This document shows positions 8,001-38,836 of a DNA stretch of 64,000 nucleotides, piece after piece. Both the position numbers and the translations under genes were made by a program. Source of the stretch: an uncultured Planctomycetia bacterium (GTDB lineage Bacteria; Omnitrophota; Gorgyraeia; Duberdicusellales; Duberdicusellaceae); NCBI GenBank assembly GCA_964634935.1, contig CAZWJT010000002.1, positions 10,570 to 74,569 on the forward strand, in the 5' to 3' direction. Position 1 is the first letter of the stretch. Every line of letters begins with the position of its first letter. The notes beneath the pieces are model-generated. The model made no database searches, was not told the origin of the DNA, and saw only the letters and a program-made list of their open reading frames with translations.

Positions 8001-9246
8001 TGAATACTATGGCTATCGAGTGGTGAGTAGCCGTCTGAATACATACTCGGTTGATGGTGTTTCCGGAGATATTATTGTTACTCGTGACAAGCTTGTTCAG
8101 GGGCAGCTGCATATTGACGCACAATTGAGCCATACAGATAAGGCAAAGACGCTTCTTTTCTCAGAAGATGGAGGAAGGACTTGGAAAGAAATACCACTAA
8201 GCGCGAACATCAGGTATTCGTTTTATCCGATGCCAAACAGGCTTTACAATCCTTTTGTCCAGATTAAAACCGAAGATCTTCTTGTAGTCAATCTCAAGCT
8301 TATTCCCAGCGCGAACGGGATTATCTATAAGGATGAAGATTTTAACCAGCAGGTAGTAGCCGCAGTTAAAGCGCTTGCCGAAGCATACGAGCGCCGGGAT
8401 TTATCGGGTTTTAGCGACCTTATTTCTCGGAATTATGCGGGAAATAAGACATTTCTCGAAGAAGGCGTTCGGTTTGATTTTGATCTTTTTCTCAATATTT
8501 CTTTGAAAATTTACATCAATCGCATTGAACAACGCGGAGATCGATTTGTCGTTGAAACCAAGTGGGATAAAAGCCAAACACCACGTCAGACAGGTCAGAC
8601 TCAAAAGACAACCGGACGAACCACGATTATGTTTGTAGTAGAGGATGGTAAACTCAAAGTTCAAAACCTGCGAGGAGATCTTCTCTATGCGACACTTTCT
8701 CCTGAAATTGCTCAAGCGAGTGGATTGTCTTCCGCCAAGGTTGAAGAAATCCGCACTGCTCGTGATGAGCGTAATCCGATACAACCGGGCGCGGGAACTA
8801 CAGATGATGATGGAGGGATCGCTTCTCCGGCGGCCACTTTGACTGTTACCACAAAAAGCTTGGAAGATGATTACGGTACCGGCGGCATGCCGGATCAGCA
8901 CATAGACTTTGCTACGGGTAATGTTATTTTAGGCGGAGCAGGAGGCGATATCGGACTTGAAGTGAATGGTTTCTGGGCACAAATAGGTGCCGGGATTAAA
9001 GAAGTCGGCACTTCATTCAATGCGACTACCGACGCTTCCGGAGTAACAGCGTTGGATAATAGCGTTTTTGGTCTTACAACAGGCAAAGTCTATATCTTTT
9101 TGACTACGGGTGGTTACTACGGTAAGCTTGAAGTGATTTCTTGGGATGAAGAAGACAGAGATCTTGATACTGTTTTTGATACCTCAATTGTGCAATTTCG
9201 CTATGCTGTCCAGACAAATGGGACATCCGATGTAACTACTCAGTAA
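5014..9246 (+). CDS. Giant (1410 aa) secreted coiled-coil protein, function unknown
   Basis: Signal peptide MRFKTIFFLTLLGFHFCGVCCSGYA. Long K/E/Q-rich heptad stretches (e.g. EEQKKKNEEYQRRQAEEAKFQAEEARKQEEARNQ). Gly/Thr-rich beta-like C-terminal 250 aa. RBS GAGGAAACAATG. Confidence 0.6.
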   Translation: MRFKTIFFLTLLGFHFCGVCCSGYAEDESLSQKAANQVIDSLPDFIKDVQAMRNMTPQQKIDYLMGAVDDRVKEKVSEKFKDQIKDKVKDFTRAALRARAFQEFGIPQIRNAFVLGEAVNWGKIESEIVSNVDTKMRMFDAGWKAAEIGWGAYEAYATGDAVAAAKSISGSVCELLAEAYIPGWGWIKFGAKMVEALGNYVLSYATDTAVQGMLEDMYGMKSNPSGFADWLIKQSPQAIMADLNSKWDDGMAFGYLWQGQGTDKGDEEMKSRLQSVLVGLRGQLLAKIKEEEAKEKELQQYMEQYNQETEKRAKDLQSVAKQATDEAEKILAPVKSFREKYYGIRKQEVQQQETRIRSQMVGGAGIAYSSLNYKGLVNIYRNALSEVKDGPSKSGFDKEAYERMYNEYGPAVAKELKRFSETNEAAIQAAGKAMWAAWGPQFDALSTQINAAFKRGDHRTVEALNNQLAALNARFAPVQQAHAKAVSEARTKMALEEQLLGTEYTLATLEATERGAKFGMRIVEAYKSINDQLSKANTELGLGLKILRENIHKLNYPGLWRHAGSIAGAIGGGYSGPAEQLRKGEYEFFVGPGHLSGAIANAEEEERKLKADLEKLSELDSAERKLYAAYRQVVANAFNSYQAVTPERLQVIHKPPIFSGDQEENRRNSMIGAARSGNPSSLGDEYWGIADFPYVSFPGGYPRITGTIISLEFLNQIDSFLGNPSEPYREALKKVQQDITALRGWAETDELAGIINQLGPRLSKLFDQYAYFGEGIPGIIYKFRALPEGKGGQGTIIDERTVLDTAGYVYLQEMKEVWEKNGHRVAQFANLAKGYGKGHNYPRDYNPKRYIDKLPTWQGIPQKIQIYEQAMIQAIKESKEAYAQARKQIDELKDQFEQSRSGFGAMNLKNMQNVQKTLKLIIQYNLVAPGYTAMKDEILQFEKDMEEGIATWLEEQKKKNEEYQRRQAEEAKFQAEEARKQEEARNQDALKRTNPAEYYGYRVVSSRLNTYSVDGVSGDIIVTRDKLVQGQLHIDAQLSHTDKAKTLLFSEDGGRTWKEIPLSANIRYSFYPMPNRLYNPFVQIKTEDLLVVNLKLIPSANGIIYKDEDFNQQVVAAVKALAEAYERRDLSGFSDLISRNYAGNKTFLEEGVRFDFDLFLNISLKIYINRIEQRGDRFVVETKWDKSQTPRQTGQTQKTTGRTTIMFVVEDGKLKVQNLRGDLLYATLSPEIAQASGLSSAKVEEIRTARDERNPIQPGAGTTDDDGGIASPAATLTVTTKSLEDDYGTGGMPDQHIDFATGNVILGGAGGDIGLEVNGFWAQIGAGIKEVGTSFNATTDASGVTALDNSVFGLTTGKVYIFLTTGGYYGKLEVISWDEEDRDLDTVFDTSIVQFRYAVQTNGTSDVTTQ

Positions 9247-10388: not shown

Positions 10389-10417
10389 TTGACAAATATT
10401 TGTTAAAATGGTATTAT
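10389..10417 (+). promoter_or_regulatory. Sigma70-like promoter TTGACA-N17-TATTAT for the ATPase/TOPRIM operon, overlapped by the near-palindrome TTGACAAATATTTGTTAA
   Basis: The -35 is 10389..10394 and the -10 is 10412..10417. The -35 lies inside an imperfect 9-9 inverted repeat, which could be an operator. Confidence 0.45.
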
Positions 10418-10462
10418 TACATTGTCAATAACGCTCAAAATAAGTATTTCAGGAGGGATAAA

Positions 10463-11689
10463 ATGATTCATTCATTTACGTTCAAAAATTTTTGTTCCTT
10501 TGCAAATAATGCCACAATATTGTTTCAGGATATTCGCAAAGGAGTAGAAACTAAGAGTAATATGTTTTGCGACACCTCGTTAGGCGACCGTGTAAGCAAA
10601 GTTATGATCGTGGTTGGGCCTAACGCGTCTGGTAAGACAAGCGCCCTTAAGGCGTTGGCTTTTCTTAGTTGGTTTGTGCGAAATTCCTTTGTTGGGCTGG
10701 AAGGGGAAAAGGAGCCAATCCCTGTCGATAATTTCGCTTTCTCAGAGGATAAAGAAAGCGTGTCGGAATTCGAATTGGTTTTTGATCACAAAGATGTTGT
10801 TTATAAATATATCCTGCATTTATGCAAAACCCATGTCATAAAGGAAGAGCTATACCGCAAAGAAGATACCCAGCATTTTAATTATATATTCAAGAGAAAT
10901 TGGAACGCACAGGCGGGGAGTTCTGAGATTGTTCAGCGCATAAATTTAAAGACAGAAATTCTTAAAGAAATCTTGCGCAAGAACGTGTCTTTAATTGCCG
11001 CGTCAGTCGCGATAAAGAACGATTTTCTTACAGATATTGCCGGGTTCTGGGAGAAGATCATTAGCAACGTTAATCGCATGGGAAAATCATGGGACACTTC
11101 TTCGCTTGGCGAACGCGGCTTATTTGAAGCCACAGAGGCCTATAATAAAAATCAAAATCTTTTTGTTAAAGTTGTTCAGTTTTTGAAAGACATTGATCTT
11201 GGTTTAGAGGGAGTGTTGATCGAAGAGGGAGAAGCTCGAAATCCTAAAACCGGAGAAGCGAAGAAAATTTATTTGCCATATGGCGTGCATAAGGTTAAGG
11301 ACAAGCAATATAAATTACCGTTAGCTTTTGAATCCAGCGGCACAAAAAATATGTTTGTGCTTTTGCATTTTCTTTTGCCAGCTATTGAGCAGGGCGGGCT
11401 TGCGGTAATAGACGAGCTTGAGATCGATTTGCATCCTCACGCCGTCCCGCAAATAATCGAGTTGTTCGCTAACCCAGCCACCAACCCTAAAAATAGCCAA
11501 CTCCTTTTTACTTCACATTCCCTGGAGGTTCTTAACCATCTTGAGAAGGAACAAATTGTTCTGGTTGAGAAAAAACAGGAGTGTAAAAGTGAGCTTTATC
11601 GGCTTGATGAATTGAAAGGAATACGTCGCGACGATAACATCTACGCAAAATATATGGCCGGTGCTTATGGCGCGGTTCCAAACATATAA
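10463..11689 (+). CDS. AAA_21/AAA_15 (ABC/OLD-type) ATPase, AbiLi/RloA/AriA-like
   Basis: Walker A VVGPNASGKTSALKAL. C-terminal ESSGTKNMFVLLHFL ... AVIDELEIDLHP ... LLFTSHSLEVL signatures. The ORF track starts at TTG 10400, but ATG 10463 has a strong RBS (AGGAGGG). Confidence 0.75.
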   Translation: MIHSFTFKNFCSFANNATILFQDIRKGVETKSNMFCDTSLGDRVSKVMIVVGPNASGKTSALKALAFLSWFVRNSFVGLEGEKEPIPVDNFAFSEDKESVSEFELVFDHKDVVYKYILHLCKTHVIKEELYRKEDTQHFNYIFKRNWNAQAGSSEIVQRINLKTEILKEILRKNVSLIAASVAIKNDFLTDIAGFWEKIISNVNRMGKSWDTSSLGERGLFEATEAYNKNQNLFVKVVQFLKDIDLGLEGVLIEEGEARNPKTGEAKKIYLPYGVHKVKDKQYKLPLAFESSGTKNMFVLLHFLLPAIEQGGLAVIDELEIDLHPHAVPQIIELFANPATNPKNSQLLFTSHSLEVLNHLEKEQIVLVEKKQECKSELYRLDELKGIRRDDNIYAKYMAGAYGAVPNI

Positions 11690-11705
11690 ATAAGGGAGCC
11701 GCGAT

Positions 11706-12248
11706 ATGACGCCAAGACGAATAAAGCCGACCAGAAACACAAAAACAACTGTTCTCATTGTAGGCGAAGGCCCTACCGAGAAAGCATTTTTGCAATATCT
11801 CAAGGAGTTATACGTCGCGTGTGATTATGCCTGTGCCGTAAAAGTAGAATGCGGTTCTGGCGGCTCACCTCGCTGTGTAGTGCAAAAAGCCATACGTTTA
11901 CGAGGTAGCAGGGCTTATGATAAGTGTTACGTGCTTTTTGACGCGGATAGGCCGCTTGAAACTGATTATAAATTATCTGATCGCATGAATAAGCGGCCTC
12001 GCGTTGAAGTTCTCAAGGCCACGCCATGCATAGAGGGGTTATTTTTGGCAATATTGAAACACCCCGGATTTTCTCAAGGAAGCGCCGCGTCACATGATTG
12101 CAAACGGGATTTCCATGCCGGTTACATATCCGAAGACAAAAAGATGGACAAACGGTCATATGGGGGGAAGTTTCCAAAAACGATACTGGATAGCCAAAGA
12201 GCGCAGGTTGCAGAGTTAGACCTTATTTTAAAGGCAATGCAGGTTTAG
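11706..12248 (+). CDS. RloB/DUF4276-like TOPRIM protein (AbiLii/OLD-nuclease-like partner)
   Basis: N-terminal basic tail then VLIVGEGPTEKAFLQYL (TOPRIM Glu) and VLFDADRP (DxD). Sits 16 bp after the ATPase gene; RBS AAGGGAG. Confidence 0.6.
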   Translation: MTPRRIKPTRNTKTTVLIVGEGPTEKAFLQYLKELYVACDYACAVKVECGSGGSPRCVVQKAIRLRGSRAYDKCYVLFDADRPLETDYKLSDRMNKRPRVEVLKATPCIEGLFLAILKHPGFSQGSAASHDCKRDFHAGYISEDKKMDKRSYGGKFPKTILDSQRAQVAELDLILKAMQV

Positions 12249-12316
12249 TGAATTTGCTTCAGGCGGTGTCGTCAGCAGGACGTTGTGGGTACCGGGAGCA
12301 ATAAACGGAGGATTTT

Positions 12317-12664
12317 ATGGGTGAAATAAAGGAACTTACAGAGAAAATAAAAGAATTCCGTGACGAGCGAGATTGGAAACAATTTCATAATCATAAGGAT
12401 ATGTCTCTCTCACTAATGCTTGAGGCAGCTGAAGTTTTAGAGCACTTTCAGTGGAAATCACAGAGCGAAGTCGAAAAACATGGAAATGCATGCAAAAATG
12501 AAATAGCTGAAGAGCTCGCTGATGTTGCTATGTACCTATTTGAGCTCGCAGATAATCTTGGTATTAATTTGTCCGATGCTATTGAGCATAAGCTGACAAA
12601 AAATGCTAAAAAGTACCCTGTAGAGAAAGCTAAAGGTAAACACACAAAATACGATAAATTATGA
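12317..12664 (+). CDS. MazG-like nucleoside triphosphate pyrophosphohydrolase (small all-alpha NTP-PPase)
   Basis: IKEFRDERDWKQFHNHKDMSLSLMLEAAEVLEHFQWK and EELADVAMYLFELA are typical of the MazG/dUTPase-like fold. RBS GGAGG. Its stop overlaps the next start (ATGA). Confidence 0.7.
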   Translation: MGEIKELTEKIKEFRDERDWKQFHNHKDMSLSLMLEAAEVLEHFQWKSQSEVEKHGNACKNEIAEELADVAMYLFELADNLGINLSDAIEHKLTKNAKKYPVEKAKGKHTKYDKL

Positions 12665-15075
12665 GGCTTTACTCGGGAACATCACAGCAATTCATTCAAG
12701 ATGCAATTCATAACCAAATCGCAGAGAAGTTAAAGAACGCATTTTTCGGATATTATCGTTACAATCCTTCCCCAGCGGAGATTAATTCTTGGCGCAACTC
12801 CCTTCGTTCGATTAGCCAAGTATTTCAGCATGCGGATCTGATGGATCATGGAGTTCTTCTTGAATACCAATTACCTTTAACTTCTCGCCGACTAGATTGC
12901 ATGATCTGTGGCCGTGATCAACAAAAAGCAGATAATGCTGTTATTGTGGAATTAAAACAATGGGATAGATGTGAAGAGGCGTATGGCGATAACGAAGTGC
13001 TCACATGGGTTGGAGGCGCAAAGCGAGAAGTATTACATCCTTCAGTCCAGGTTGGGCAATATCATCTTTACCTAGAAGATACGCACACAGCATTTAATGT
13101 TGATGATGACCCTGTTACCCTGAACGCTTGTACTTATTTACATAATTACAACTATTATTCCGACGACGTTATTTTTTCAGATAAATTCCAACTTCCTCTT
13201 AAACGGTATCCTCTATTTACTGCAGATGATGTTGAAAAGCTAACAGATTATTTGAGGGATAGACTTTTAACCGGAGACGGCCTAGATGTTTTACAAAGGA
13301 TCGAAGAAAGTAAATATCGTCCAAATAAAAAGCTCATGGATCACGTAGGTAACATAATAAAAAACAAAACAGAGTATATTCTGCTAGATGAGCAACTTAT
13401 CGTTTATGATGCTGTCTTGGGATGCGCAAAAAGAAGCTTCCATGATAAGCAAAAGTCTGTAATTGTTGTTAAAGGTGGCCCAGGCACTGGCAAGTCTGTT
13501 ATAGCAATTAACTTAATGGCTGACTTGCTATTGAAAGGTTACAACTCTCATTATGCCACTGGTTCAAAGGCTTTCACAGAGACATTGCGGAAGATCATCG
13601 GAACTCGCGGATCCGTACAGTTTAAATATTTTAACAGTTATGGTCAAGCAGAAGAGAATGCTGTAGATATTCTCATCGCGGATGAGGCCCATCGTATACG
13701 AGAGACAAGCAATAGTCGATTTACACCTCGCGCGAGCCGCTCCGAAATGACACAAATTGAAGAATTGCTTCGGGCGTCTAAGGTCGCGGTATTTTTTATT
13801 GATGATGACCAAGTAGTGCGTCCTAATGAAATAGGCTCTGTTGATTATATTAAGAGAATCGCAGACGATCGCAAAATCAAACTCCATGAATATGAATTAG
13901 AAGCTCAATTTCGTTGTAATGGATCTGATGCGTTTGTAAGTTGGATCAACAATACCTTAGGGATTAAAAGAACCGCCCATGTAATCTGGGATCAACATGA
14001 AGAATTTGATTTTAAGATATTTTCTAGTCCAATTGAACTTGAAAATGCCATACGTAATAATGTTGCACGAGGCTTTACTGGAAGAGTAACAGCTGGTTTT
14101 TGCTGGGATTGGTCGCTCCCGAATGAAGATGGTACGTTGAAAAATGATGTAATCATAGGAGATTATAAACGACCATGGGATGCAAAGCCGGAGGCTAAAC
14201 GCTTAGCTCCAGGTATTCCGAAAGCTTCCCTGTGGGCATATGATCCTAATGGTATTAATCAAGTTGGATGTGTGTATACTGCACAGGGTTTCGAGTTTGA
14301 TTATGTCGGAGTTATTTTTGGTGAAGATTTAGTATATGACTTTGATAAGCAAGAGTGGATCGGCAATTCGGCTAATTCCTCTGATAGCGTAGTTAAGCGG
14401 TCTAAGAACAAATTTGTGGATTTGGTAAAAAATACTTATAGAGTTTTATTAAGCCGAGGAATGAAGGGTTGTTACGTCTATTTTATGAATAAAGATACCG
14501 AGAGGTTTTTTAAATCACGAATTGAAGGTGATAATACACAAATAGATGAATCTTTAACCGTTTCTAGGCTTCTAGGTAGCGAGGTAGATTTTCTTGAACG
14601 TATTCTCCAAGACGTTGATAGCTCTTTGAAATACAAAGAATATTTACCAGTTTATACTTTGGCTGCGGCAGCCGGTGCATTCGGCGAAGGCATGGATGTT
14701 AAAGAAAAGGGTTGGATTAAGGTTAACATCGGTAAGGCTTTGAATAAAAAATTATTCGTTGCGAAAGTAATCGGTAAGTCTATGGAACCGTTAATTCCTG
14801 ATGGGAGCTATTGTGTGTTTAGTGCGAACGTTGTTGGCACGCGAGCGAATAAGATTGTTTTAGTTCAACACAGCAGCATTTCTGATCTTGATAGTGGCGG
14901 AAAATATACGGTGAAGAAATATACGAGTAAGAAAAAATACTCGTCAGATGACACTTGGGAACATGACGAAATAACTTTGTTGCCGCTAAATCCTGACTAC
15001 GCTCCCATCATAATACCGAATACCAATGAGGGCGAGTTTATGGTGATCGCAGAATTTATATCAGTATTAAAATAA
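12661..15075 (+). CDS. DUF2075-type nuclease/helicase: N-terminal PD-(D/E)xK motif, P-loop NTPase, C-terminal LexA/UmuD-type S24 autopeptidase domain
   Basis: RLDCMICG...AVIVELKQW matches D..ExK. Walker A VVKGGPGTGKSV and Walker B ILIADEAHRI. DUF2075 tail CVYTAQGFEFDYVGVIFGEDL. The C terminus has AAAAG (Ala671-Gly672) then 35 aa later VIGKSMEPLIPDGSYCVF (Ser707), TVKKY (Lys), LLPLNPDYAPIIIP, matching the S24 layout. Confidence 0.75.
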   Translation: MRLYSGTSQQFIQDAIHNQIAEKLKNAFFGYYRYNPSPAEINSWRNSLRSISQVFQHADLMDHGVLLEYQLPLTSRRLDCMICGRDQQKADNAVIVELKQWDRCEEAYGDNEVLTWVGGAKREVLHPSVQVGQYHLYLEDTHTAFNVDDDPVTLNACTYLHNYNYYSDDVIFSDKFQLPLKRYPLFTADDVEKLTDYLRDRLLTGDGLDVLQRIEESKYRPNKKLMDHVGNIIKNKTEYILLDEQLIVYDAVLGCAKRSFHDKQKSVIVVKGGPGTGKSVIAINLMADLLLKGYNSHYATGSKAFTETLRKIIGTRGSVQFKYFNSYGQAEENAVDILIADEAHRIRETSNSRFTPRASRSEMTQIEELLRASKVAVFFIDDDQVVRPNEIGSVDYIKRIADDRKIKLHEYELEAQFRCNGSDAFVSWINNTLGIKRTAHVIWDQHEEFDFKIFSSPIELENAIRNNVARGFTGRVTAGFCWDWSLPNEDGTLKNDVIIGDYKRPWDAKPEAKRLAPGIPKASLWAYDPNGINQVGCVYTAQGFEFDYVGVIFGEDLVYDFDKQEWIGNSANSSDSVVKRSKNKFVDLVKNTYRVLLSRGMKGCYVYFMNKDTERFFKSRIEGDNTQIDESLTVSRLLGSEVDFLERILQDVDSSLKYKEYLPVYTLAAAAGAFGEGMDVKEKGWIKVNIGKALNKKLFVAKVIGKSMEPLIPDGSYCVFSANVVGTRANKIVLVQHSSISDLDSGGKYTVKKYTSKKKYSSDDTWEHDEITLLPLNPDYAPIIIPNTNEGEFMVIAEFISVLK

Positions 15076-15085
15076 TAGGTTAGGC

Positions 15086-15790
15086 ATGATATTAAAACCC
15101 GGTGAAATAGTTTCTTATTTAACAATGTGCCAGCACGAAGGGGTAAACCTTCAGCGGGGCATGAATTTCCGGTTAAAGGGCGGGCTAAGTGTCATTTTAA
15201 TGAGCTTAAGAAAGAATGCCCCGTATGCTGATAGAGTCGAGGATGATGGTGGCGTTCTGATCTATGAAGGCCACGATGTTCCGAAATATCAGGGGTTAAA
15301 GCAAAATCCAAAACAAATTGATCAGCCAGGGCTTACTCCCTCAGGGGCATTAACCGAAAATGGCAAGTTTTTCAAAGCGGCCGAAGGATATAAGAAAAAT
15401 AATGGCATTCCAGAGCTCGTTAAAGTTTATGAGAAGATACGTAACGGCATTTGGACGTATTCTGGGATTTTTGAATTGATTGATGCATGGCAGGAAGCTG
15501 CTGGGAAGCGAAAGGTATTTAAATTCAAACTAAAAATTACCGATCGGTCAGAGGCCGATCGCGACCCTGCAAATAAGGACGACTTGGATCATACGCGCGT
15601 AATACCCACAGATGTTAAATTGGCGGTATGGGAGCGCGATAAAGGACGATGTGTTGTATGCAATTCGGCAAACAACTTGCACTTTGATCACATTATCCCA
15701 TTCTCAAAGGGCGGTACATCTTTAAAAGCAGAAAATATTCAATTGATGTGTGCAAGGCATAATCTAAATAAACGAGATAAATTAATTTAG
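15086..15790 (+). CDS. SRA(YDG)-like domain fused to an HNH endonuclease: putative type IV modification-dependent restriction enzyme
   Basis: C-terminal HNH: CVVCNSANNLHFDHIIPFSKGG...NIQLMCARHN. The N-terminal GGLSVILMS...YADRVEDDGGVLIYEGHD resembles the SRA motif S-V-L-SGG...Y-DD-D-G...YTG-GG. 10 bp after the DUF2075 gene. Confidence 0.55.
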   Translation: MILKPGEIVSYLTMCQHEGVNLQRGMNFRLKGGLSVILMSLRKNAPYADRVEDDGGVLIYEGHDVPKYQGLKQNPKQIDQPGLTPSGALTENGKFFKAAEGYKKNNGIPELVKVYEKIRNGIWTYSGIFELIDAWQEAAGKRKVFKFKLKITDRSEADRDPANKDDLDHTRVIPTDVKLAVWERDKGRCVVCNSANNLHFDHIIPFSKGGTSLKAENIQLMCARHNLNKRDKLI

Positions 15791-18934: not shown

Positions 18935-20230
18935 ATGAATATTCCGGAATCAGGTAAGCCGCTCGATACGGCCGCAATAACAATTGGTGATAAGATCGTT
19001 TCCTGTCCTATTATCACAGGCGTTGAGAATGAGAAAGCCTTGGATATTTCTGGGCTTCGCAATAAAACAGGTTACGTGACGTATGACGAGGGATATGTCA
19101 ATACCGCCTCTTGCTTAAGCAGCATTACCTACATAGACGGGGAGAATGGAATATTGCGATACAGGGGGATTCCCGTGGAAGAACTTGCCGCAAAACGAAG
19201 CTTTATTGAAGTCGCTCATTTGCTTATTTTCGGGCACTTGCCGTCGGTTACAGAGAAAAGTACCTTTTCTAAACTTCTTACCAGTAACTGCATGATTCAT
19301 GACAATATGGTCAAGCTTTTTGATAACTTGCCCGGTTCAAGCCATCCCATGGCTACTTTGTCGGCAATGGTGGTGACGCTTTCTGCGTATTATCCTGAGT
19401 TGGTAAAGCCCGAGATGAACGCAGGGGAGATGAATAAAATTATTGCCGAACTTCTTGCCAAGATCAGGACCCTTGCGGCGTATTCATACAAAAAATCCAT
19501 CGGTGAACCTATCATTTACCCGAAACGCGAGTATAAATATGTCGAAAACTTTCTTCATATGATGTTTTCCACTCCTGTAGATGAATACCCCTTAGATCAA
19601 GAAGTGGTAGATGCCCTGGAAAAGATTCTTATCCTCCACGCTGATCATGAGCAGAATTGCAGTACTTCAACCGTGCGGTTGGTGGGAAGTTCTAAAGCCA
19701 ATCTTTTTGCGTCTATCTCTGCGGGTATTTGTGCCCTCTGGGGACCTTTACATGGCGGTGCGAATCAAGCCGTTATTGAGATGCTTGAGGCGATCGTTAG
19801 GGATAAGATAGATGTGAGGCATGTTATCGAGAAAGCAAAGGACAAAAATAATCCTTTCTTGCTTATGGGTTTTGGCCATCGAATTTATAAGAATTTTGAT
19901 CCCCGGGCGAGGATTATTAAGGAAATATGCGATAAAGTGCTCACGAAACTGGGTATCAATGATCCTTGTCTTGAGATTGCTAAAAAGATCGAGGAAGTAG
20001 CCCTGAAAGACGATTTCTTCATTCAACGCAAACTTTATCCTAACGTTGATTTTTACAGCGGCATAATTCTTCGCGCGATCGGTATCCCGACGAATATGTT
20101 TACCGTTATTTTTGCTATGGGGCGGCTTCCTGGATGGATCGCACATTGGAAGGAACAATGTGAGTCTCCCAATCAAAAGATTGGGCGACCCCGTCAAGTC
20201 TATATCGGAGCGCCACTGACGCATATATAA
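18935..20230 (+). CDS. gltA: Citrate synthase
   Basis: Canonical LILHADHEQNCSTSTVRLVGSS, GPLHGGANQAV, MGFGHRIYKNFDPRA motifs. Confidence 0.9.
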   Translation: MNIPESGKPLDTAAITIGDKIVSCPIITGVENEKALDISGLRNKTGYVTYDEGYVNTASCLSSITYIDGENGILRYRGIPVEELAAKRSFIEVAHLLIFGHLPSVTEKSTFSKLLTSNCMIHDNMVKLFDNLPGSSHPMATLSAMVVTLSAYYPELVKPEMNAGEMNKIIAELLAKIRTLAAYSYKKSIGEPIIYPKREYKYVENFLHMMFSTPVDEYPLDQEVVDALEKILILHADHEQNCSTSTVRLVGSSKANLFASISAGICALWGPLHGGANQAVIEMLEAIVRDKIDVRHVIEKAKDKNNPFLLMGFGHRIYKNFDPRARIIKEICDKVLTKLGINDPCLEIAKKIEEVALKDDFFIQRKLYPNVDFYSGIILRAIGIPTNMFTVIFAMGRLPGWIAHWKEQCESPNQKIGRPRQVYIGAPLTHI

Positions 20231-32806: not shown

Positions 32807-34081
32807 GTGATTGAACCAAGGATCATAGCGCTTTTTGTTTTTATCGTAACCTATATTCTTTTTGTTTTTTTGCCGCATAAAAGGACAATTGTCTGCATTT
32901 TTTCTTCATTACTGCTGCTTCTTCTGCGAACGATTTCTTGCCGGGAGGCTTTTTCGGCGATTAATTGGAATGTGATGGGCATTTTTATCGGTACACTCGC
33001 GGTTGCTGATGTTTTCATGAAAAGCCGGGTTCCGGCTTATATCGCGGAAATAATCGTTGATCGAGCAAAGAATACCTGCCAGGCAATTTTATTTATTTGT
33101 CTTTTGACTGGATTTATTTCTGCATTTGTTGAGAATGTGGCGACCGTACTGATCGTTGCGCCTATCGCATTGTCTTTAGCAAAGAAACTCAAAATGAACC
33201 CAACCAATATGATGATAGCAATTGCTATCTCAAGTAATCTCCAGGGAACTGCGACGTTAATCGGAGATCCGCCAAGTATGCTTTTAGGCGGGTTTGCCAA
33301 GATGAACTTCATGGATTTCTTTTTCTACCAGGGAAAACCCAGCATATTCTTTGCAGTCGAATTAGGAGCGGTTGCTTCATTTTTTATTCTGTATTTCGTT
33401 TTTCGAAACTACCGTCAAAAAACTCAGCTTGTGCCGGTAGAGAAGGTATATTCTTGGGTTCCAACGGTTATGCTGGTTACGCTTATTCTTTTGCTGGCAG
33501 TAAGTTCATTCTTTGATACAGGGTTTTCTTACCTTGCGGGAGTTTTAAGTATGGTATTTGGGGTTATTGCGCTTCTTTGGCAGAAATGTATCTATCGGAA
33601 ATCGCTTATTCAGGATCTGAAAGCGCTCGATTGGGATACTACTTTTTTTCTGATCGGTGTTTTTATTCTCGTCGGGAGCATTACCGTGACCGGATGGATT
33701 GAGGTTGCTTCAAGTTTTCTTTCAAGCGTGGTAGGGGAGAATCTTTTTCTGGGGTATACTCTGCTTGTTTTCCTAGCGATGGTTCTTTCGGCCTTTGTCG
33801 ACAATGTTCCATTCTTGGCTACAATGTTGCCGGTTGCAATCTCAATGTCTGACAAATTACAGATTCATCCCGCACTGTTTCTGTTCGGACTACTCATTGG
33901 AGCAAGTCTTGGGGGAAATATTACTCCCATAGGCGCTTCAGCAAATATCGTCGCGTGTGGGCTTTTAAAAAAAGAAGGATACCGGGTAACTTTTAAGGAT
34001 TTTGGAAAGATCGGGATACCCTTTACGCTTGCTGCAGTGGGCGCTGCGTATCTTTTTGTCTGGTTTACTTGGAAAGGGTAA
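32807..34081 (+). CDS. ArsB/NhaD-superfamily permease (GTG start)
   Basis: Multi-TM, inverted-repeat transporter pattern. GTG start with RBS GGAG. Confidence 0.5.
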   Translation: MIEPRIIALFVFIVTYILFVFLPHKRTIVCIFSSLLLLLLRTISCREAFSAINWNVMGIFIGTLAVADVFMKSRVPAYIAEIIVDRAKNTCQAILFICLLTGFISAFVENVATVLIVAPIALSLAKKLKMNPTNMMIAIAISSNLQGTATLIGDPPSMLLGGFAKMNFMDFFFYQGKPSIFFAVELGAVASFFILYFVFRNYRQKTQLVPVEKVYSWVPTVMLVTLILLLAVSSFFDTGFSYLAGVLSMVFGVIALLWQKCIYRKSLIQDLKALDWDTTFFLIGVFILVGSITVTGWIEVASSFLSSVVGENLFLGYTLLVFLAMVLSAFVDNVPFLATMLPVAISMSDKLQIHPALFLFGLLIGASLGGNITPIGASANIVACGLLKKEGYRVTFKDFGKIGIPFTLAAVGAAYLFVWFTWKG

Positions 34082-34274
34082 GCTTAAACAGGGGCCGTGT
34101 GCTTTGCCAATCCTGCCTTGACAAAGACTTTGGAATGTGTTATTATTTATCCACGGTGACATTATGAGCCCAAAAAATATCTCCACAAAGAAATCTTTGG
34201 CGTATGTGCTTGTACGCGTAGAGGTATTTTTTGCCTCGGTGTTTTCACCGTAAAGCTCGCGCATTGCTTAATCA

Positions 34275-34306
34275 AGCCCTGTCGGTGAAAACCGACAGGG
34301 CTTTTT
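34275..34306 (+). terminator. Rho-independent terminator GCCCTGTCGG-tgaaaa-CCGACAGGGC-TTTTTT
   Basis: Perfect 10-bp GC-rich stem followed by a T6 run. Confidence 0.75.
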
Positions 34307-34366
34307 TGTTTTTAAACGCATCCTAAATTGGTAGTTTCGGTGAAGAAAAAAAGTAATTCGGGAAGA

Positions 34367-34429
34367 ATGATTATGAATTTTATGGTTGCAGTTATTTTAG
34401 TATGTGTGCTTGTATGTGCTCCGCCATAG
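34367..34429 (+). CDS. Branched-chain amino-acid leader peptide MIMNFMVAVILVCVLVCAPP
   Basis: 20-codon ORF with 5 Val, 2 Ile and 2 Leu. RBS GGGAAG. Followed 20 nt later by a terminator hairpin, directly upstream of ilvB. Confidence 0.6.
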   Translation: MIMNFMVAVILVCVLVCAPP

Positions 34430-34449
34430 CGGGTATTTTTCCATTTATA

Positions 34450-34485
34450 CCCCTGTTGGCGGAAGTGAACAGGGGTTTTTCTTTT
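34450..34485 (+). terminator. Attenuator terminator CCCCTGTT-N10-AACAGGGG-TTTTTCTTTTT
   Basis: 8-bp stem plus T-run between the leader peptide and ilvB (start 34505). Confidence 0.65.
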
Positions 34486-34504
34486 TATCAGGAAAGGAGT
34501 AAAA

Positions 34505-36154
34505 ATGAAATATTCAGGAGCAGAAATAATCATTCGGATTTTGGAAATAAATGGAATAGGCCTTATTGCTGGGATTCCAGGGGGTTCTAACTTGCCTTTG
34601 TATGACGCGCTGCACAAAAGCACGATACGTCATATTTTGGCCCGCCATGAACAAGGAGCTGGATTTATTGCTCAGGGCATAGCCCGTTCCACAGGGAAAC
34701 CCGGAATTTGTTTTGCCACTTCTGGTCCGGGAGCGGCAAACTTAATTACTGCGATTGCTGATGCAAAATTAGACTCTATTCCCATTATTGCGATTACCGG
34801 CCAGGTTCCCCGCGCATACATTGGGACTGATGCTTTTCAGGAAGTGGATATGTACGGAATGACCATTCCTATTACAAAGCATAATTTTCTTGTGAAGGAA
34901 GCGAAAGAATTGGTTCGGATTATACCTGAAGCGTTTCACATCGCTTTGTCCGGGAGGCCAGGCCCTGTTCTTGTGGATGTTCCCAGGGATGTGCAGATTG
35001 AAAAGGCAACAGTATCAAATTGGCCGGATGCGTTCTCTGGGGGAAAACCATCGCTGATTCATCTTCACGATATCAGAAAGGCGGTAGCGTTATTTCAAAA
35101 ATCACGGCTACCTCTTTTCTATGTAGGCGGAGGAATACGTTTTGGGAATGCTGGTAAATATATTGAAGAGATATCATCAGATGGGAATATACCGATTGCT
35201 GCAACACTGATGGGCTTGAGCACTATTGATACCGCTCATCCCTGGTACTACGGATTGGTGGGAATGCACGGCCAGCGTGAAACCAATGAAATGTTCCGGA
35301 AGGCAGATTTGATTATTGCATTAGGAGCGCGATTCGGCGATCGGACGACCGGAGACATCGAATACTTTTGTCCGCAGGCAAAAATCATCCATGTTGACAT
35401 TGATGAAGCCGAAATTGGAAAGAACCAGAGCGTGGATTTAGGCATCTGCGCGGATAGTGCCAGTTTTCTACGCGCATTTCAGAAACATTGCGACATAAGA
35501 AAGAGTAGGTGGCCTTGTCGGGTGCGGCAATTTACTCTTGGGGCAAACAGTTCATTCGAGCGTGCTCTACAACCAAGAGCAATCATGCAATATATTGCCC
35601 GGTGTGTTGGCCGGAACGCTCTTATTACTACGGATGTTGGCCAACATCAGATGTGGACAGCGCAATATTACCCATTTACGCCAAAAAATAAGTTTTTGAC
35701 TTCGGGTGGTCTTGGGACAATGGGCTTTGGATTTCCTGCGGCGATAGGAGCGGCTCTCATGCATCCAAAAAGAAAAGTTATCTGCATAAGCGGCGATGGC
35801 TCATTCTTAATGAACATGCAGGAGTTAGCAGTTTTAAGTGAGGAGAACTTGGACTTGAAAATCATTATATTGAAAAACAACCATTTGGGGCTTGTGCGGC
35901 AGCAACAGAATCTTTTCTATAACCAGCGCTATATTGCGTCGCAGCTTCAGTGTTCACCTGATTTTGCAGGCATTGCTCGTGGTTTTGGCGTCTTAGGTTA
36001 TGATCTGTCCTGCACGGAAAATCCAGAAGCGCTCTTATACGACGCATTAAAAAAGAAAGGTCCGGCTCTGGTTAGTATACCAATCAGCCATGAGGAAGCA
36101 GTTTTGCCGATGGTTATTCCGGGGAAAAGTAATCTTGAAATGATAGGAGGTTAA
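34505..36154 (+). CDS. ilvB: Acetolactate synthase large subunit (biosynthetic, TPP-dependent)
   Basis: IAGIPGGSNLPLYDAL ... GPGAANLITAIADAKLDSIPIIAITGQVP ... TPP motif GDGSFLMNMQEL. Confidence 0.85.
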   Translation: MKYSGAEIIIRILEINGIGLIAGIPGGSNLPLYDALHKSTIRHILARHEQGAGFIAQGIARSTGKPGICFATSGPGAANLITAIADAKLDSIPIIAITGQVPRAYIGTDAFQEVDMYGMTIPITKHNFLVKEAKELVRIIPEAFHIALSGRPGPVLVDVPRDVQIEKATVSNWPDAFSGGKPSLIHLHDIRKAVALFQKSRLPLFYVGGGIRFGNAGKYIEEISSDGNIPIAATLMGLSTIDTAHPWYYGLVGMHGQRETNEMFRKADLIIALGARFGDRTTGDIEYFCPQAKIIHVDIDEAEIGKNQSVDLGICADSASFLRAFQKHCDIRKSRWPCRVRQFTLGANSSFERALQPRAIMQYIARCVGRNALITTDVGQHQMWTAQYYPFTPKNKFLTSGGLGTMGFGFPAAIGAALMHPKRKVICISGDGSFLMNMQELAVLSEENLDLKIIILKNNHLGLVRQQQNLFYNQRYIASQLQCSPDFAGIARGFGVLGYDLSCTENPEALLYDALKKKGPALVSIPISHEEAVLPMVIPGKSNLEMIGG

Positions 36155-36157
36155 CGA

Positions 36158-36583
36158 ATGGAACATAAATCTATTTTTTGCCTTGAGCTTATTGTGCGAA
36201 ACCATTCCGGAGTCATGGCGCATATTACGGGTCTTTTCTCGCGGCGTAACTTCAATTTAGAAGGTATTCTTTGTGCGCCGCTGAGGGATGAAGAAAAAAG
36301 CTGTGTCTATTTATTCGTGAGAGAGACTGGGCGGATGGAGCAGACGATAAAACAACTTCTTAAACTCTATGACGTTGTTTCGGTTCGGATGCGGATGGAC
36401 AGAAACCAATATTTTTTCCACGATTTGCGCAAACTTGTTCGGCGCCATGCAAAATTTTTGCATGGAAGGAACTTTGCCGGAGAGAGCGTGTCTAAGGAAA
36501 AGGAATCCATCAAAGGTTTTCATCCGGTGTTTTCGGGCAAAACACCGGAAGACGTGCTGAAAAAAAATAAAAAAGTGGTATAG
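36158..36583 (+). CDS. ilvN: Acetolactate synthase small (regulatory, ACT-domain) subunit
   Basis: LIVRNHSGVMAHITGLFSRRNFNLEGI ACT-domain signature. 3 nt after ilvB. Confidence 0.7.
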   Translation: MEHKSIFCLELIVRNHSGVMAHITGLFSRRNFNLEGILCAPLRDEEKSCVYLFVRETGRMEQTIKQLLKLYDVVSVRMRMDRNQYFFHDLRKLVRRHAKFLHGRNFAGESVSKEKESIKGFHPVFSGKTPEDVLKKNKKVV

Positions 36584-36590
36584 TATATCT

Positions 36591-37853
36591 ATGAAATTAT
36601 TCCGTGTAATTTTCCTGTGTCTTATTTCTTTTTCTTTTTTTTCAGAATTAGACGCAGAAGAAATTCTTTCCTGGGGCGACTGTCTGCTCGAAGCGCAAAA
36701 AAACAACCCTGACTTAATTTCCGCAGCCGCCAGCATCAGCCAGAAGCAAGCGGCAAAAACTATTGCTGGAAGTGGGCTTTACCCGCGTGTTGATCTGAGC
36801 GCTGCTGCTTCTTCGAGCAAATCTGAACCAGCGAGCGCCTCTGACTCTTATTCATACGCAGTCACCGGAAAACAACTCTTATTCGACGGTTTTAAGACGA
36901 TCAATAAAGTAGGATCCGCTTCGGAGAACATAAAGGTTGCACAGGAAGGATACCGCTATACTTCGGGTGATGTCCGTTTTCGTCTGCGTGCTGCTTTTGT
37001 GAATCTTCTAAAAGCGCAAGAACTTATTAACGTTGCTGAAGAGATTGTGCGCATTCGACGGAGCAGTCTTGAGCTTATTACGTTGCGTTATCTATCGGGT
37101 TTCGAACACAAGGGAGCTTTGCTGACCGCAGAAGCGAATCTTCGGCAAGCAAAGTTTGAGCTTTCTCAGTCGCGACGTAATGCTGAATTTTTGCAAAGGC
37201 AGTTAACCAAAGAAATGGGACGGAAGATCTTTGCGCCGGTAACCGTAAGGGGAGATTTTTCCGTGCGTACCGATATTTCGGAAAGACCAGAATTTGAGCG
37301 CTTAGCAAAAGAACATCCATCGGTTCTTCAGGGGGCAGCAAAAAAGAACGCGGCATTTCTTGATCTTCGATCTGCGTATGGAGAGTTTATTCCTCAGGTT
37401 TCAGCAAACACATCAGTCGGGAAGCGAGGTTCTCATCTTTTTCCAGAGAATGATCAGTGGAGTTTAGGGCTTACCTTTTCACTGCCTTTGTTGGAAGGTG
37501 GGTTACGGCACGCTCAGGTAGCGCAAGCCCAGGCAGTCTATGCCCAGCTTATTGCGGATGAGCAGAGCACGCTTGATGCAATTTCCGTTCATCTTCATGA
37601 CGCTTGGATGGCGCTTGAAGATGCCCTAGAGAACGTTGAGGTACAGGATAAGATTTTAATCGCGGCAAAAGAACGATTGAAGATTGCTGAAGCCCAGTAC
37701 TCCACTGGTTTTATCAATTTTGATAACTGGATTATCATAGAAAACGATTTAGTCAAAGCCAAGAAGACCTACCTTGAAGCTGAGGCAAACGCGCTGCTTG
37801 TGGAAGCAAGTTGGGTTTTGGCGAAAGGAGAAACCTTAGAATATGCACAGTAG
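36591..37853 (+). CDS. TolC-family outer-membrane efflux protein
   Basis: Signal peptide plus two OEP repeat halves. Confidence 0.7.
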   Translation: MKLFRVIFLCLISFSFFSELDAEEILSWGDCLLEAQKNNPDLISAAASISQKQAAKTIAGSGLYPRVDLSAAASSSKSEPASASDSYSYAVTGKQLLFDGFKTINKVGSASENIKVAQEGYRYTSGDVRFRLRAAFVNLLKAQELINVAEEIVRIRRSSLELITLRYLSGFEHKGALLTAEANLRQAKFELSQSRRNAEFLQRQLTKEMGRKIFAPVTVRGDFSVRTDISERPEFERLAKEHPSVLQGAAKKNAAFLDLRSAYGEFIPQVSANTSVGKRGSHLFPENDQWSLGLTFSLPLLEGGLRHAQVAQAQAVYAQLIADEQSTLDAISVHLHDAWMALEDALENVEVQDKILIAAKERLKIAEAQYSTGFINFDNWIIIENDLVKAKKTYLEAEANALLVEASWVLAKGETLEYAQ

Positions 37854-38817: not shown

Positions 38818-38836
38818 AACTGAGTTGCCTACAAAG

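What the first reader, a model, noticed from the sequence alone, without database searches (positions are those of the whole stretch)
34230..34504. Classical leader-peptide attenuator upstream of ilvBN
Between the terminator at 34275..34306 and ilvB lies a 20-codon ORF, MIMNFMVAVILVCVLVCAPP (34367..34429; 9 of 20 residues Val/Ile/Leu), with an RBS. An intrinsic terminator follows 20 nt later (34450..34485) and ends 19 nt before the ilvB ATG. This is the textbook arrangement for ribosome-mediated attenuation by branched-chain amino acids. It is notable here because the organism looks like an uncultured anaerobe, where T-box or other mechanisms are often assumed.
Basis: partly seen in the sequence, partly recalled or inferred. 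Interest (0 to 1): 0.5.

Follow-up and report, generated by a model that had tools for sequence, protein, structure and literature searches.

The report
Tandem valine-sensing leader-peptide attenuators before ilvBN
The short valine-rich reading frame and terminator in front of the acetolactate synthase genes are a real, textbook ribosome-mediated attenuator, but it is the second of two duplicated attenuators in series, an arrangement conserved in the enzyme's closest relatives from other uncultured bacteria.

Summary

A mutually exclusive antiterminator can be drawn (34420-36 with 34447-63). It is the most stable fold until the terminator 3' arm is made. A ribosome on the stop codon blocks it; one stalled on the Val/Ile/Leu codons does not.

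A near-consensus promoter (34118-34146) lies upstream of the "first terminator" (34274-34303). Between them is a paralogous unit: leader MSPKNISTKKSLAYVLVRVEVFFASVFSP (34164..34253), antiterminator 34241-50/34283-92, and an anti-antiterminator (34153-59/34245-51).

The same two-unit layout precedes ilvB in six of the closest homologues examined (55-58% identical), whatever gene lies upstream. Base changes there are compensated in the antiterminator and terminator helices.

Single leader-peptide attenuators precede this enzyme clade in many phyla, including E. coli ivbL, so the mechanism itself is ordinary. The organism is most likely an Omnitrophota MAG.

Verdict: a real, known mechanism in a duplicated in-series variant that I did not find described for branched-chain amino acid operons. 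Interest is moderate.

The parts
34118..34146 (+). Sigma-70-type promoter: TTGACA, 17 nt, TATTAT, with TG at 34138-39 (extended -10). The transcription start is predicted near A34153.
   Evidence: One search gives 11 of 12 consensus matches and the TG. It is the only strong site in the spacer, and none was found between 34304 and 34366. The same TTGACA..TGnTATAAx sits upstream of unit 1 in L083, L084, L085, L166, L171 and L172. The start site is inferred, not measured.
34153..34159 (+). ACGGUGA. It is the SD-like element of leader 1 (GGUGA, 4 nt before the ATG) and the 5' strand of the anti-antiterminator, pairing with UCACCGU at 34245-34251.
   Evidence: The MFE folds show this pairing. It is invariant or wobble-compatible in 7 lineages, with 95.9% of cells paired. 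RNAalifold predicts it independently.
34164..34253 (+). Leader ORF 1, MSPKNISTKKSLAYVLVRVEVFFASVFSP*. The regulatory codons are GTG CTT GTA CGC GTA GAG GTA at 34206-34226.
   Evidence: It is paralogous to leader 2, with GTG CTT GTA in frame in both (D2). Homologous Val-run leaders occur in L082-L085, L166, L171 and L172. By composition alone it is only borderline: 50 of 2000 shuffles match it.
34241..34250 (+). Antiterminator 1, 5' strand (GUUUUCACCG). The leader 1 stop codon TAA (34251-53) follows immediately.
   Evidence: It is 10 bp perfectly complementary to 34283-34292 (I5). Across 7 lineages 94% of cells pair, three pairs change on both sides, and 0 of 500 shuffles reach the covariation score.
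34274..34314 (+). Terminator 1: a 13-bp stem (34274-86/34291-303) plus a U-tract. Its 5' arm and loop (34283-92, CGGUGAAAAC) form the 3' strand of antiterminator 1.
   Evidence: -25.7 kcal/mol. In 7 lineages 100% of cells pair and 6 pairs covary.
34360..34365 (+). SD-like GGGAAG of leader 2.
   Evidence: Read directly from the sequence. The spacing favours ATG 34373 (7 nt) over ATG 34367 (1 nt).
34367..34429 (+). Leader ORF 2, M(IM)NFMVAVILVCVLVCAPP*. The regulatory Val/Ile/Leu codons are at 34385-34414.
   Evidence: Homologous leaders ending ..LPP*..KPPP*..SLPP*..LLPP* and ..RPPP* occur in L083-85, L166, L171 and L172.
34420..34436 (+). Antiterminator 2, 5' strand. UCCGCCA pairs with UGGCGGA at 34457-63. 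GGGUAU pairs with AUACCC at 34447-52. The stop codon TAG (34427-29) lies inside this strand. The strand can also fold on itself as a small hairpin, 34420-24/34429-33.
   Evidence: I3. One search gives -23.2 kcal/mol on 34418-34466. The upper helix shows 3 pairs changed on both sides relative to L083/L084/L085. RNAalifold predicts the CCNCC/GGGG hairpin around the stop codon.
34449..34486 (+). Terminator 2: a 9-bp stem (34449-57/34468-76) plus the U-tract UUUUUCUUUUU.
   Evidence: It is 72% identical to terminator 1 in register (D1). All cells pair and 3 pairs covary.
34505..36583 (+). The regulated genes. ilvB (34505..36154, 549 aa) is the biosynthetic acetolactate synthase large subunit. The ilvN-like ACT small subunit is at 36158..36583 (141 aa).
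   Evidence: Pfam finds TPP_enzyme_N/M/C and ACT_AHAS_ss. TIGR00118 scores 642.7 against a cut-off of 538.35, and the best models are the E. coli IlvB and IlvN types.

Best explanation
The ilvBN genes are preceded by two ribosome-mediated (leader-peptide) transcription attenuators in series. The two arose by duplication, and both respond mainly to the supply of charged tRNA-Val, with some Ile and Leu codons.

Transcription starts at the promoter 34118-34146. In each unit a short ORF rich in Val/Ile/Leu codons ends directly on the 5' strand of an antiterminator helix. The 3' strand of that helix is the 5' arm and loop of an intrinsic terminator.

- If Val/Ile/Leu-tRNAs are plentiful, the ribosome runs to the stop codon (..SP-TAA in unit 1, ..PP-TAG in unit 2) and covers the antiterminator strand. 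The terminator folds and transcription stops.
- If they are scarce, the ribosome stalls on the regulatory codons, at least 13 nt upstream. The antiterminator forms before the terminator 3' arm is made, and RNA polymerase reads through.
- In unit 1 an untranslated leader is also off. The SD-containing 5' end ACGGUGA pairs with the antiterminator strand.

ilvBN is made only when both terminators are passed, so output is the product of two read-through decisions. That should give a lower basal level and a steeper response.

What is shown: the sequences, the alternative pairings and their energies, the paralogy of the two units, and their conservation and covariation in relatives.

What is inferred: the transcription start, translation of both ORFs, the kinetic order of folding, the sensing of tRNA charging, and the benefit of having two units.
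For: - **Promoter and terminators.**
- **Paralogy of the two units.** They share codons GTG CTT GTA in frame, the motif GGTATTTTT, and terminators 72% identical in register.
- **Antiterminators.** I5 is 10 bp and perfect. I3 is 13 pairs in two helices. Energies are AT2 -23.2 against T2 -19.3, and AT1 -15.7 against T1 -25.7.
- **Ribosome position.** With the ribosome modelled at each codon, the antiterminator is the MFE fold of the RNA available before the terminator 3' arm exists. This holds while the A-site is at or before 34227 (unit 1) or 34409 (unit 2). It cannot form when the ribosome is on the last codons or the stop.
- **Untranslated unit 1.** It folds into the anti-antiterminator (7 of 7 pairs), and AT1 forms 0 of 10 pairs.
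- **Conserved layout.** The same two-unit layout, with alignable sequence, precedes ilvB in L083, L084, L085, L166, L171 and L172. Their upstream genes are unrelated, and one is on the opposite strand.
- **Contiguous units.** In L084 the T-run of terminator 1 abuts the ATG of leader 2, so the units are transcribed in series.
- **Covariation.** AT1: 94% paired, 3 pairs with double changes, slid controls 37-62%. Anti-AT1 plus T1: 98.6% paired, 7 covarying pairs. AT2 upper helix: 3 covarying pairs. T2: 100% paired.
- **One linked change.** An A-to-G change in L084 (UUCGCCG) is compensated in the antiterminator (GGCGAA) and tolerated as G-U in the anti-antiterminator.
- **Between the window's own units.** The homologous 7-bp helix UUCACCG/CGGUGAA became UCCGCCA/UGGCGGA, three double changes. 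The stop codon immediately follows the strand in both.
- **Positive control.** The scan recovers E. coli ivbL.
Against: - There is no transcript, ribosome or expression data. The start site is only predicted, and it places the SD of leader 1 at the extreme 5' end of the RNA.
- The SD of leader 2 is weak and its start codon is ambiguous.
- At thermodynamic equilibrium both terminators win for every ribosome position. The switch therefore depends on co-transcriptional kinetics, as in all classical attenuators, and this was not simulated.
- Leader 1 of the window has only 4 Val and 2 Leu in its best 10-residue stretch, which is not striking by composition alone (50 of 2000 shuffles).
- Untranslated unit 2 is predicted to fold into the antiterminator, unlike the trp paradigm.
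- L166 and L171 lack the upper helix of antiterminator 2.
- Only 7 related lineages could be aligned, so the covariation counts are small and not phylogenetically independent.
- A second promoter overlapping terminator 1 cannot be excluded by sequence.
Confidence: 0.75

Rival explanations
1. This is a single attenuator. Only unit 2 (34360-34486) regulates ilvBN. The hairpin at 34274-34303 is just the terminator of the upstream transporter gene, and the ORF at 34164..34253 is a chance ORF.
For: The transporter gene (ending at 34081) has no other terminator between its stop codon and 34274, so terminator 1 probably also stops read-through from upstream. Leader 1 is only borderline by composition.
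Against: The only strong promoter lies between the transporter gene and terminator 1. Unit 1 is paralogous to unit 2. It is conserved in front of ilvB in relatives with different upstream genes, and one of those genes is on the opposite strand. Its antiterminator and anti-antiterminator are conserved and covary.
Confidence: 0.08
2. Unit 1 is an independent small gene: a 29-residue peptide or a roughly 155-nt small RNA with its own promoter and terminator. ilvBN would then be transcribed from a separate, unrecognised promoter between 34304 and 34366, and only unit 2 would act in cis.
For: Region 34153-34315 folds unusually well (z = -7.2). Attenuator-derived RNAs and leader peptides can act in trans in other bacteria, for example rnTrpL and peTrpL of Sinorhizobium (PMC7968998, PMC7298713, listed).
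Against: No promoter-like site was found between the units. In L084 the units are contiguous, with the T-run of terminator 1 directly followed by the ATG of leader 2. The conserved features of unit 1 are exactly those of an attenuator: a Val run, a stop codon at the antiterminator strand, and three mutually exclusive helices. A trans role would add to cis attenuation rather than replace it.
Confidence: 0.1
3. The switch is operated by a ligand, a tRNA or a protein (a riboswitch, a T-box, or an RNA-binding attenuation protein) rather than by a translating ribosome, and the ORFs are incidental.
For: Alternative terminator and antiterminator hairpins are common to all of these mechanisms. No experiment ties the switch to translation.
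Against: No Rfam family matches at gathering score, or convincingly at E<=10. The T-box model does find the Bacillus ilvB leader used as a control. The sequence between the start codon and the Val run is variable in length and sequence, which does not fit an aptamer. What is conserved is the reading frame, the Val codons (with synonymous variation GTA/GTC/GTG) and the position of the stop codon.
Confidence: 0.04
4. These are chance ORFs next to ordinary terminators, with no regulation.
For: T-rich spacers readily encode V/I/L/F-rich peptides.
Against: Shuffle tests, conservation in 7 lineages, and covariation.
Confidence: 0.03

Closest known systems
E. coli ivbL-ilvBN attenuator (leader peptide IvbL, MTTSMLNAKLLPTAPSAAVVVVRVVVVVGNAP)
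   Same: It regulates the same enzyme type. The window IlvB is 51% identical to E. coli IlvB, and its best NCBIfam models are the IlvB and IlvN types. It has the same logic: a Val/Leu-rich leader ORF, then a terminator shortly before ilvB. Both leaders end in Pro-stop. My scan recovers it.
   Different: E. coli has one unit and the window has two in series. The leader and RNA sequences are not alignable. The window leaders are shorter, with interrupted Val runs mixed with Ile, Leu and Cys. CRP-cAMP control in E. coli comes from my own knowledge and has no counterpart examined here.
trp-type classical attenuation (regions 1:2, 2:3, 3:4)
   Same: Both use mutually exclusive anti-antiterminator, antiterminator and terminator pairings, set by the position of the ribosome on a leader ORF. 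Unit 1 matches the full scheme, including termination when the leader is not translated.
   Different: In both units the stop codon lies directly at or within the antiterminator 5' strand. In unit 1 the anti-antiterminator strand is the SD region at the 5' end of the RNA. Unit 2 without translation is predicted to read through.
Tandem attenuators of the Salmonella mgtCBR leader (PMC3641672), and tandem riboswitches and T-boxes (the latter from my own knowledge)
   Same: Two complete short-ORF-controlled switches sit in one 5' leader and act in series on the same operon.
   Different: The mgtCBR ORFs are unrelated to each other and sense different signals (ATP and proline, as I recall it). Here the two units are paralogues, both dominated by Val codons, and they control an amino acid biosynthetic operon through two intrinsic terminators.
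Predicted leader-peptide attenuators of ilv operons outside proteobacteria. These include Actinobacteria (PMC1262725) and the Corynebacterium ilvB uORF (PMC10272879). From my own knowledge, Vitreschak et al. 2004 covers Bacteroidetes/Chlorobi and Thermotogales. Lopatovskaya et al. 2010 is listed in the references of PMC4833913; I did not read it.
   Same: Short V/I/L-rich ORFs overlap or precede terminators upstream of ilvB in diverse phyla.
   Different: In the papers I could read I found no description of a duplicated, in-series pair upstream of ilvB, and none for Omnitrophota.

Membership tests
Ribosome-mediated (leader-peptide) transcription attenuators | A short ORF with a start codon and ribosome-binding site in the 5' leader of the operon | tested here: met
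   Leader 1 is 34164..34253, with GGUGA 4 nt upstream. Leader 2 is 34367 or 34373..34429, with GGGAAG upstream. The SD of leader 2 is weak or ambiguous.
Ribosome-mediated (leader-peptide) transcription attenuators | A cluster of codons for the amino acid(s) made by the regulated pathway | tested here: met
   Leader 2 has 8 V/I/L in 10 residues, matched by 8 of 2000 shuffles. Leader 1 has 6 in 10, matched by 50 of 2000. Relatives carry VVVV(V) runs at the homologous place.
Ribosome-mediated (leader-peptide) transcription attenuators | An intrinsic terminator between the leader ORF and the structural gene | tested here: met
   T1 is 34274-34303 at -25.7 kcal/mol. T2 is 34449-34476 at -19.3 kcal/mol. 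Both have U-tracts.
Ribosome-mediated (leader-peptide) transcription attenuators | An antiterminator helix mutually exclusive with the terminator | tested here: met
   It is conserved with compensatory changes.
Ribosome-mediated (leader-peptide) transcription attenuators | Geometry such that a ribosome at the stop codon blocks the antiterminator, while one stalled on the regulatory codons does not | tested here: met
   Footprint modelling. The stop codon abuts or lies within the antiterminator 5' strand in both units and in most relatives.
Ribosome-mediated (leader-peptide) transcription attenuators | An anti-antiterminator (1:2) pairing that gives termination without stalling | tested here: inconclusive
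   Unit 1 meets it (ACGGUGA/UCACCGU). Unit 2 has a conserved small hairpin around the stop codon, but the untranslated RNA is predicted to prefer the antiterminator.
Ribosome-mediated (leader-peptide) transcription attenuators | Read-through increases when the cognate aminoacyl-tRNA is limiting | not testable with these tools
   This needs reporter or transcript assays under Val/Ile/Leu limitation.
Orthologue of the enterobacterial ivbL leader | Sequence homology of the leader peptide and RNA to ivbL | tested here: not met
   ivbL leaders (..AAVVVVRVVVVVGNAP) share no alignable sequence with the window leaders. The conserved unit 1 signature occurs only in the window, L081, L083-85 and L166, and by eye in L171 and L172.
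T-box leader | A match to the T-box covariance model (specifier loop, T-box sequence) | tested here: not met
   No T-box hit at E<=10 in 33900-34700, or at gathering score in the whole window. The model does detect the Bacillus ilvB leader L036.
Any curated Rfam cis-regulatory family (amino acid leaders, ilvB motifs, riboswitches) | A score at or above the family gathering threshold | tested here: not met
   Only sub-threshold hits driven by the terminator hairpins.

The most novel reading that the evidence does not exclude
The most novel reading is that an old duplication produced a two-stage, self-similar valine sensor, maintained as a pair across a deep clade of uncultured bacteria. The clade's IlvB proteins are only 55-60% identical to one another.

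On this reading the two stages are not redundant. Stage 1 is off unless it is translated and the ribosome stalls. Stage 2 is on unless a ribosome reaches its Pro-Pro-stop end. Slow termination at Pro-stop would park the ribosome on the antiterminator strand.

Together they would form a kinetic proofreading or ultrasensitive gate on tRNA-Val charging. C-terminal Pro-stop would then be a general, unrecognised design feature of branched-chain amino acid leader peptides: 20 of 54 predicted leaders have it, against 6% of control mini-ORFs.
Probability: 0.3. Interest if true: 0.5.

Novelty: new variant of a known kind. Interest (0 to 1): 0.35.

Why it matters
Leader-peptide attenuation of ilvBN has been textbook since the E. 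coli work, so the mechanism itself teaches little that is new. Three things are worth recording.

1. It contains a conserved pair of paralogous attenuators in series. This is a natural analogue of tandem riboswitches and T-boxes, but driven by ribosomes, and it could be used to test how serial attenuators sharpen or tighten an amino acid response.

2. It extends ribosome-mediated attenuation to an Omnitrophota genome and its unnamed relatives. It also shows that this AHAS clade carries leader peptides across many phyla. Annotation pipelines that call the hairpin at 34274-34303 a gene-end terminator, or ignore the mini-ORFs, would misread the locus.

3. The strong excess of Pro-stop endings among these leaders suggests a testable link between slow termination after proline and attenuator efficiency.

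Tried and rejected
- **Rfam searches.** I ran permissive and gathering searches on the region, the whole window and 12 related loci. There was no family hit. The sub-threshold hits (BSnc120, trpB motif and others) are alignments to the terminator hairpins.

- **Equilibrium folding with a masked ribosome footprint.** The terminator is always the MFE fold, so this approach cannot discriminate. I replaced it with folding of the RNA available before the terminator 3' arm exists.

- **Close relatives for fine-scale comparison.**
  - The GTDB species scan gave at most 53% identity.
  - The 5.8-billion-protein search gave at most 58%.
  - The only other copy (L081) is identical in the spacer.

- **Alignment A5.** It misplaced the window stop codon by 3 nt and was discarded in favour of A2 and A6.

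- **The long inner helix of unit 1 in the window (34171-86/34218-33, I1).** RNAalifold does not recover it in relatives, so I do not claim it.

- **Recent horizontal transfer of ilvBN.** No GC or GC3 anomaly was found.

- **Literature.** I searched for tandem branched-chain amino acid leader peptides and found nothing. The library lacks most subscription papers, including Vitreschak et al. 2004 and Lopatovskaya et al. 2010.

Full report
**What is there**

The spacer 34082-34504 lies between a CitMHS/ArsB-type transporter gene (32807..34081) and a two-gene acetolactate synthase unit. The large subunit is at 34505..36154. It has the TPP_enzyme N/M/C domains and scores 642.7 on TIGR00118 against a cut-off of 538.35. 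The ACT small subunit is at 36158..36583.

It reads MIMNFMVAVILVCVLVCAPP* at 34367..34429, with 5 Val, 2 Ile and 2 Leu. It is followed 20 nt later by a 9-bp GC-rich stem (34449-57/34468-76) and UUUUUCUUUUU, which ends 19 nt before the ilvB ATG. The SD-like GGGAAG (34360-65) fits the in-frame ATG at 34373 better than the ATG at 34367.

An ORF this rich in V/I/L arose in 8 of 2000 dinucleotide shuffles of the segment. Only 6 of 708 comparable ORFs anywhere in the window reach the same value.

The promoter scan finds one strong site in the spacer: TTGACA-17-TATTAT with an upstream TG, at 34118-34146. It lies upstream of the "first terminator" (34274-34303), and nothing promoter-like sits between that terminator and the mini-ORF.

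Between the promoter and that terminator is a second ORF, MSPKNISTKKSLAYVLVRVEVFFASVFSP* (34164..34253). GGUGA lies 4 nt upstream of its ATG.

The repeat search shows that the two ORF-plus-terminator units are diverged copies of each other:
- 34196-34214 matches 34396-34414. This includes GTG CTT GTA, which encodes V-L-V in frame in both.
- GGTATTTTT occurs at 34223 and at 34432.
- The terminators 34277-34312 and 34451-34486 are 72% identical in register.

**Alternative structures**

Each unit has an antiterminator.
- Unit 1: GUUUUCACCG (34241-50) is perfectly complementary to CGGUGAAAAC (34283-92). That sequence is the inner 5' arm and loop of terminator 1 (I5).
- Unit 2: UCCGCCA..GGGUAU (34420-36) pairs with AUACCC..UGGCGGA (34447-63). 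That covers the whole 5' arm and loop of terminator 2 (I3).

Energies:

| Structure | kcal/mol |
|---|---|
| AT2, on 34418-34466 | -23.2 |
| T2 alone | -19.3 |
| Small stop-codon hairpin plus T2 | -26.0 |
| AT1 | -15.7 |
| T1 alone | -25.7 |

The two stop codons sit at the same structural place. TAA (34251-53) comes directly after the AT1 strand. TAG (34427-29) lies inside the AT2 strand.

I modelled a ribosome at every codon, taking the RNA as occluded up to 12 nt past the first A-site base. I then folded only the RNA that exists before the terminator 3' arm is made.
- The full antiterminator is the MFE structure while the A-site is at or before 34227 in unit 1. That covers all four clustered Val codons and the adjacent Leu codon.
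- In unit 2 it forms fully or almost fully (11-13 of 13 pairs) while the A-site is at or before 34409.
- It cannot form once the ribosome is on the last codons or on the stop.

At equilibrium the terminator always wins. The switch must therefore be kinetic, as in the classical cases.

Without translation, unit 1 folds so that the 5' end ACGGUGA (34153-59, which includes the SD) pairs with UCACCGU (34245-51). The antiterminator does not form (whole unit z = -7.2). Unit 2 without translation prefers the antiterminator.

**Comparative evidence**

This IlvB has no close relative. The best match among 5.8 billion proteins is 58% identical, and the best in GTDB species genomes is 53%. One other contig (L081) is identical across the spacer.

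I fetched the DNA around the closest homologues. Six of them carry the same two-unit leader with alignable sequence: L083, L084, L085, L166, L171 and L172. Their IlvB proteins are 55-58% identical to the window's. The shared layout, in order, is:
1. a TTGACA..TGnTATAAx promoter;
2. (A)CGGUGA, 4-6 nt before the ATG of leader 1;
3. a Val run (TTVVVVGEV, ATVVVAV, VITVVQVV, VVEVVVV or VVEVNVVVVV);
4. UUCACCG at or near the stop codon;
5. a terminator with GGUGAA in its loop;
6. leader 2, ending ..LPP, ..KPPP, ..SLPP, ..LLPP or ..RPPP, then the stop codon and a G-rich stretch beginning GGG;
7. terminator 2;
8. the SD of ilvB.

The genes upstream are unrelated: a kinase/AsmA protein, BipA, a PAS-HD protein and a TonB-dependent receptor. 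In L166 the upstream gene is on the opposite strand. Unit 1 therefore belongs to ilvB and not to the preceding gene.

In L084 the T-run of terminator 1 is directly followed by the ATG of leader 2. This leaves no spacer for a separate promoter.

L082 has unit 1 only, followed by an odd repetitive stretch.

**Covariation**

Results on the 7-sequence alignment of unit 1 (A4):
- The antiterminator has 94% of cells paired, against 37-62% when the partner strand is slid by 1-3 columns.
- Three of its pairs change on both sides, and no shuffle out of 500 reaches its covariation score.
- The anti-antiterminator plus terminator 1 have 98.6% of cells paired, with 7 pairs changed on both sides.
- RNAalifold, given no hint, predicts the anti-antiterminator (9 bp) and terminator 1.

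One substitution is especially telling. L084 has UUCGCCG where the others have UUCACCG. Its terminator loop has GGCGAA instead of GGUGAA, which restores the antiterminator pair. The same G forms a G-U wobble with the invariant ACGGUGA.

For unit 2:
- Terminator 2 is 100% paired, with 3 covarying pairs.
- The upper antiterminator helix shows three double changes between the window (UCCGCCA/UGGCGGA) and L083/L084 (GCCACCG/CGGUGGC).
- L166 and L171 lack that upper helix and keep only the UAGGGG/CCCCUA part.
- RNAalifold predicts a conserved CCNCC/GGGG hairpin enclosing the stop codon.

The same three double changes separate the homologous helices of the window's own two units.

**How common, and how known**

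I scanned 700 nt upstream of 166 loci encoding IlvB homologues. The scan looked for a mini-ORF with at least 6 V/I/L in 10 residues, followed within 60 nt by a hairpin and a T-run. Fifty loci had at least one such unit. They include:
- E. coli ivbL, recovered and annotated as such;
- enterobacterial ilvL;
- Leptospira, Spirochaetia, Verrucomicrobiota, Fibrobacteres, Bacteroidales and Zoogloea.

Bacillus has a T-box, which Rfam detects.

The script flagged six loci as tandem, counting the window. Four more were found by eye: L083, L086, L171 and L172. Among these ten, three have sequences that do not align with the window's: Breznakibacter (L042), L086 and L100.

In the held literature, "tandem attenuators" refers to the Salmonella mgtCBR leader (PMC3641672), and two leader peptides are described for erm genes (PMC8274638). 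I found no description of duplicated branched-chain amino acid leader-peptide attenuators. Key subscription papers could not be read, so this absence is weak evidence.

**The organism**

Citrate synthase from the same window (18935..20230) has relatives at 80-92% identity. All the named ones are Candidatus Omnitrophica/Omnitrophota. The window also encodes a [FeFe]-hydrogenase set, a hybrid-cluster protein and outer-membrane efflux components. This fits an anaerobic diderm.

It is unexplained why IlvB has no relative above 58% when citrate synthase has many above 80%. The ilvBN genes show no GC or GC3 anomaly.

**Verdict**

The true element is a pair of paralogous Val/Ile/Leu leader-peptide attenuators in series, spanning about 34118-34486.

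The sequence anatomy, energetics, paralogy, conservation and covariation are shown. The transcription start, translation of the ORFs, the kinetic competition, sensing of tRNA charging, and any gain from having two stages are inferred.

It is a new variant of a well-known kind, of moderate interest.

Noticed in passing
Leaders in the window (34248-53, 34421-29) and in L002-L172: Predicted branched-chain amino acid leader peptides end in proline far more often than chance. Twenty of 54 unique leaders do (..NAP*..TP*..SP*..PP*), against 6.1% of 492 control mini-ORFs from the same regions. The CCN codons also form the C-rich strand of a hairpin. The excess may therefore reflect RNA pairing, slow termination after Pro, or both. 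Related sequences are not independent.
   Followed up: partly
window 34505-36154, compared with 18935-20230: IlvB has no homologue above 58% identity in 5.8 billion proteins. Citrate synthase from the same contig has many at 80-92%, all the named ones Omnitrophota. Close relatives of this organism seem to lack this ilvBN, or it was not assembled. There is no GC or GC3 anomaly.
   Followed up: partly
window 36583-40810: An outer-membrane efflux gene (OEP, 36591..37853) starts 7 nt after the ilvN stop codon. HlyD (37843..) and MacB-type ABC (38753..) genes follow, overlapping one another. The efflux genes may be co-transcribed with ilvBN and so sit behind the attenuators. Relatives have unrelated genes after ilvN, with gaps of roughly 100-290 nt.
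   Followed up: no
window 36158-36583: The small subunit is 141 aa. The IlvN-like subunits next to the closest homologues are 95-103 aa. Only residues 7-93 match the IlvN model, so there is an uncharacterised C-terminal extension of about 45 residues.
   Followed up: no
L082 1150-1315: In this closest homologue (58%), unit 2 is replaced by a stretch of repeats of the form CCATGGACCATGG / GGTCCATAGTCTATGG, between terminator 1 and the ilvB SD. Its nature is unknown.
   Followed up: no
window 9378-15790: Downstream of tRNA-His (9378-9455) lies a block typical of defence or mobile islands. It holds an AAA_21/AAA_15 ATPase (10400..11689), a Schlafen-group-3 helicase fused to an S24 peptidase (12661..15075) and an HNH endonuclease (15086..15790).
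   Followed up: no
window 2799-9246: Two large ORFs have no Pfam or NCBIfam match at the thresholds used: 578 aa (2799..4535) and 1410 aa (5014..9246). The 1410-aa protein is alone in its 90% cluster.
   Followed up: no
window 34420-34442 and 34221-34246: In each leader a small hairpin followed by a U-rich run lies just before the antiterminator loop: UCCGC-CAUA-GCGGG then UAUUUUU, and GAGGUAUUUUUUGCCUC then GGUGUUUU. The consensus scan flags both as terminator-like. They could be RNA polymerase pause sites that synchronise transcription with the leader ribosome, as the 1:2 hairpin does in trp. This is my inference and was not tested.
   Followed up: no
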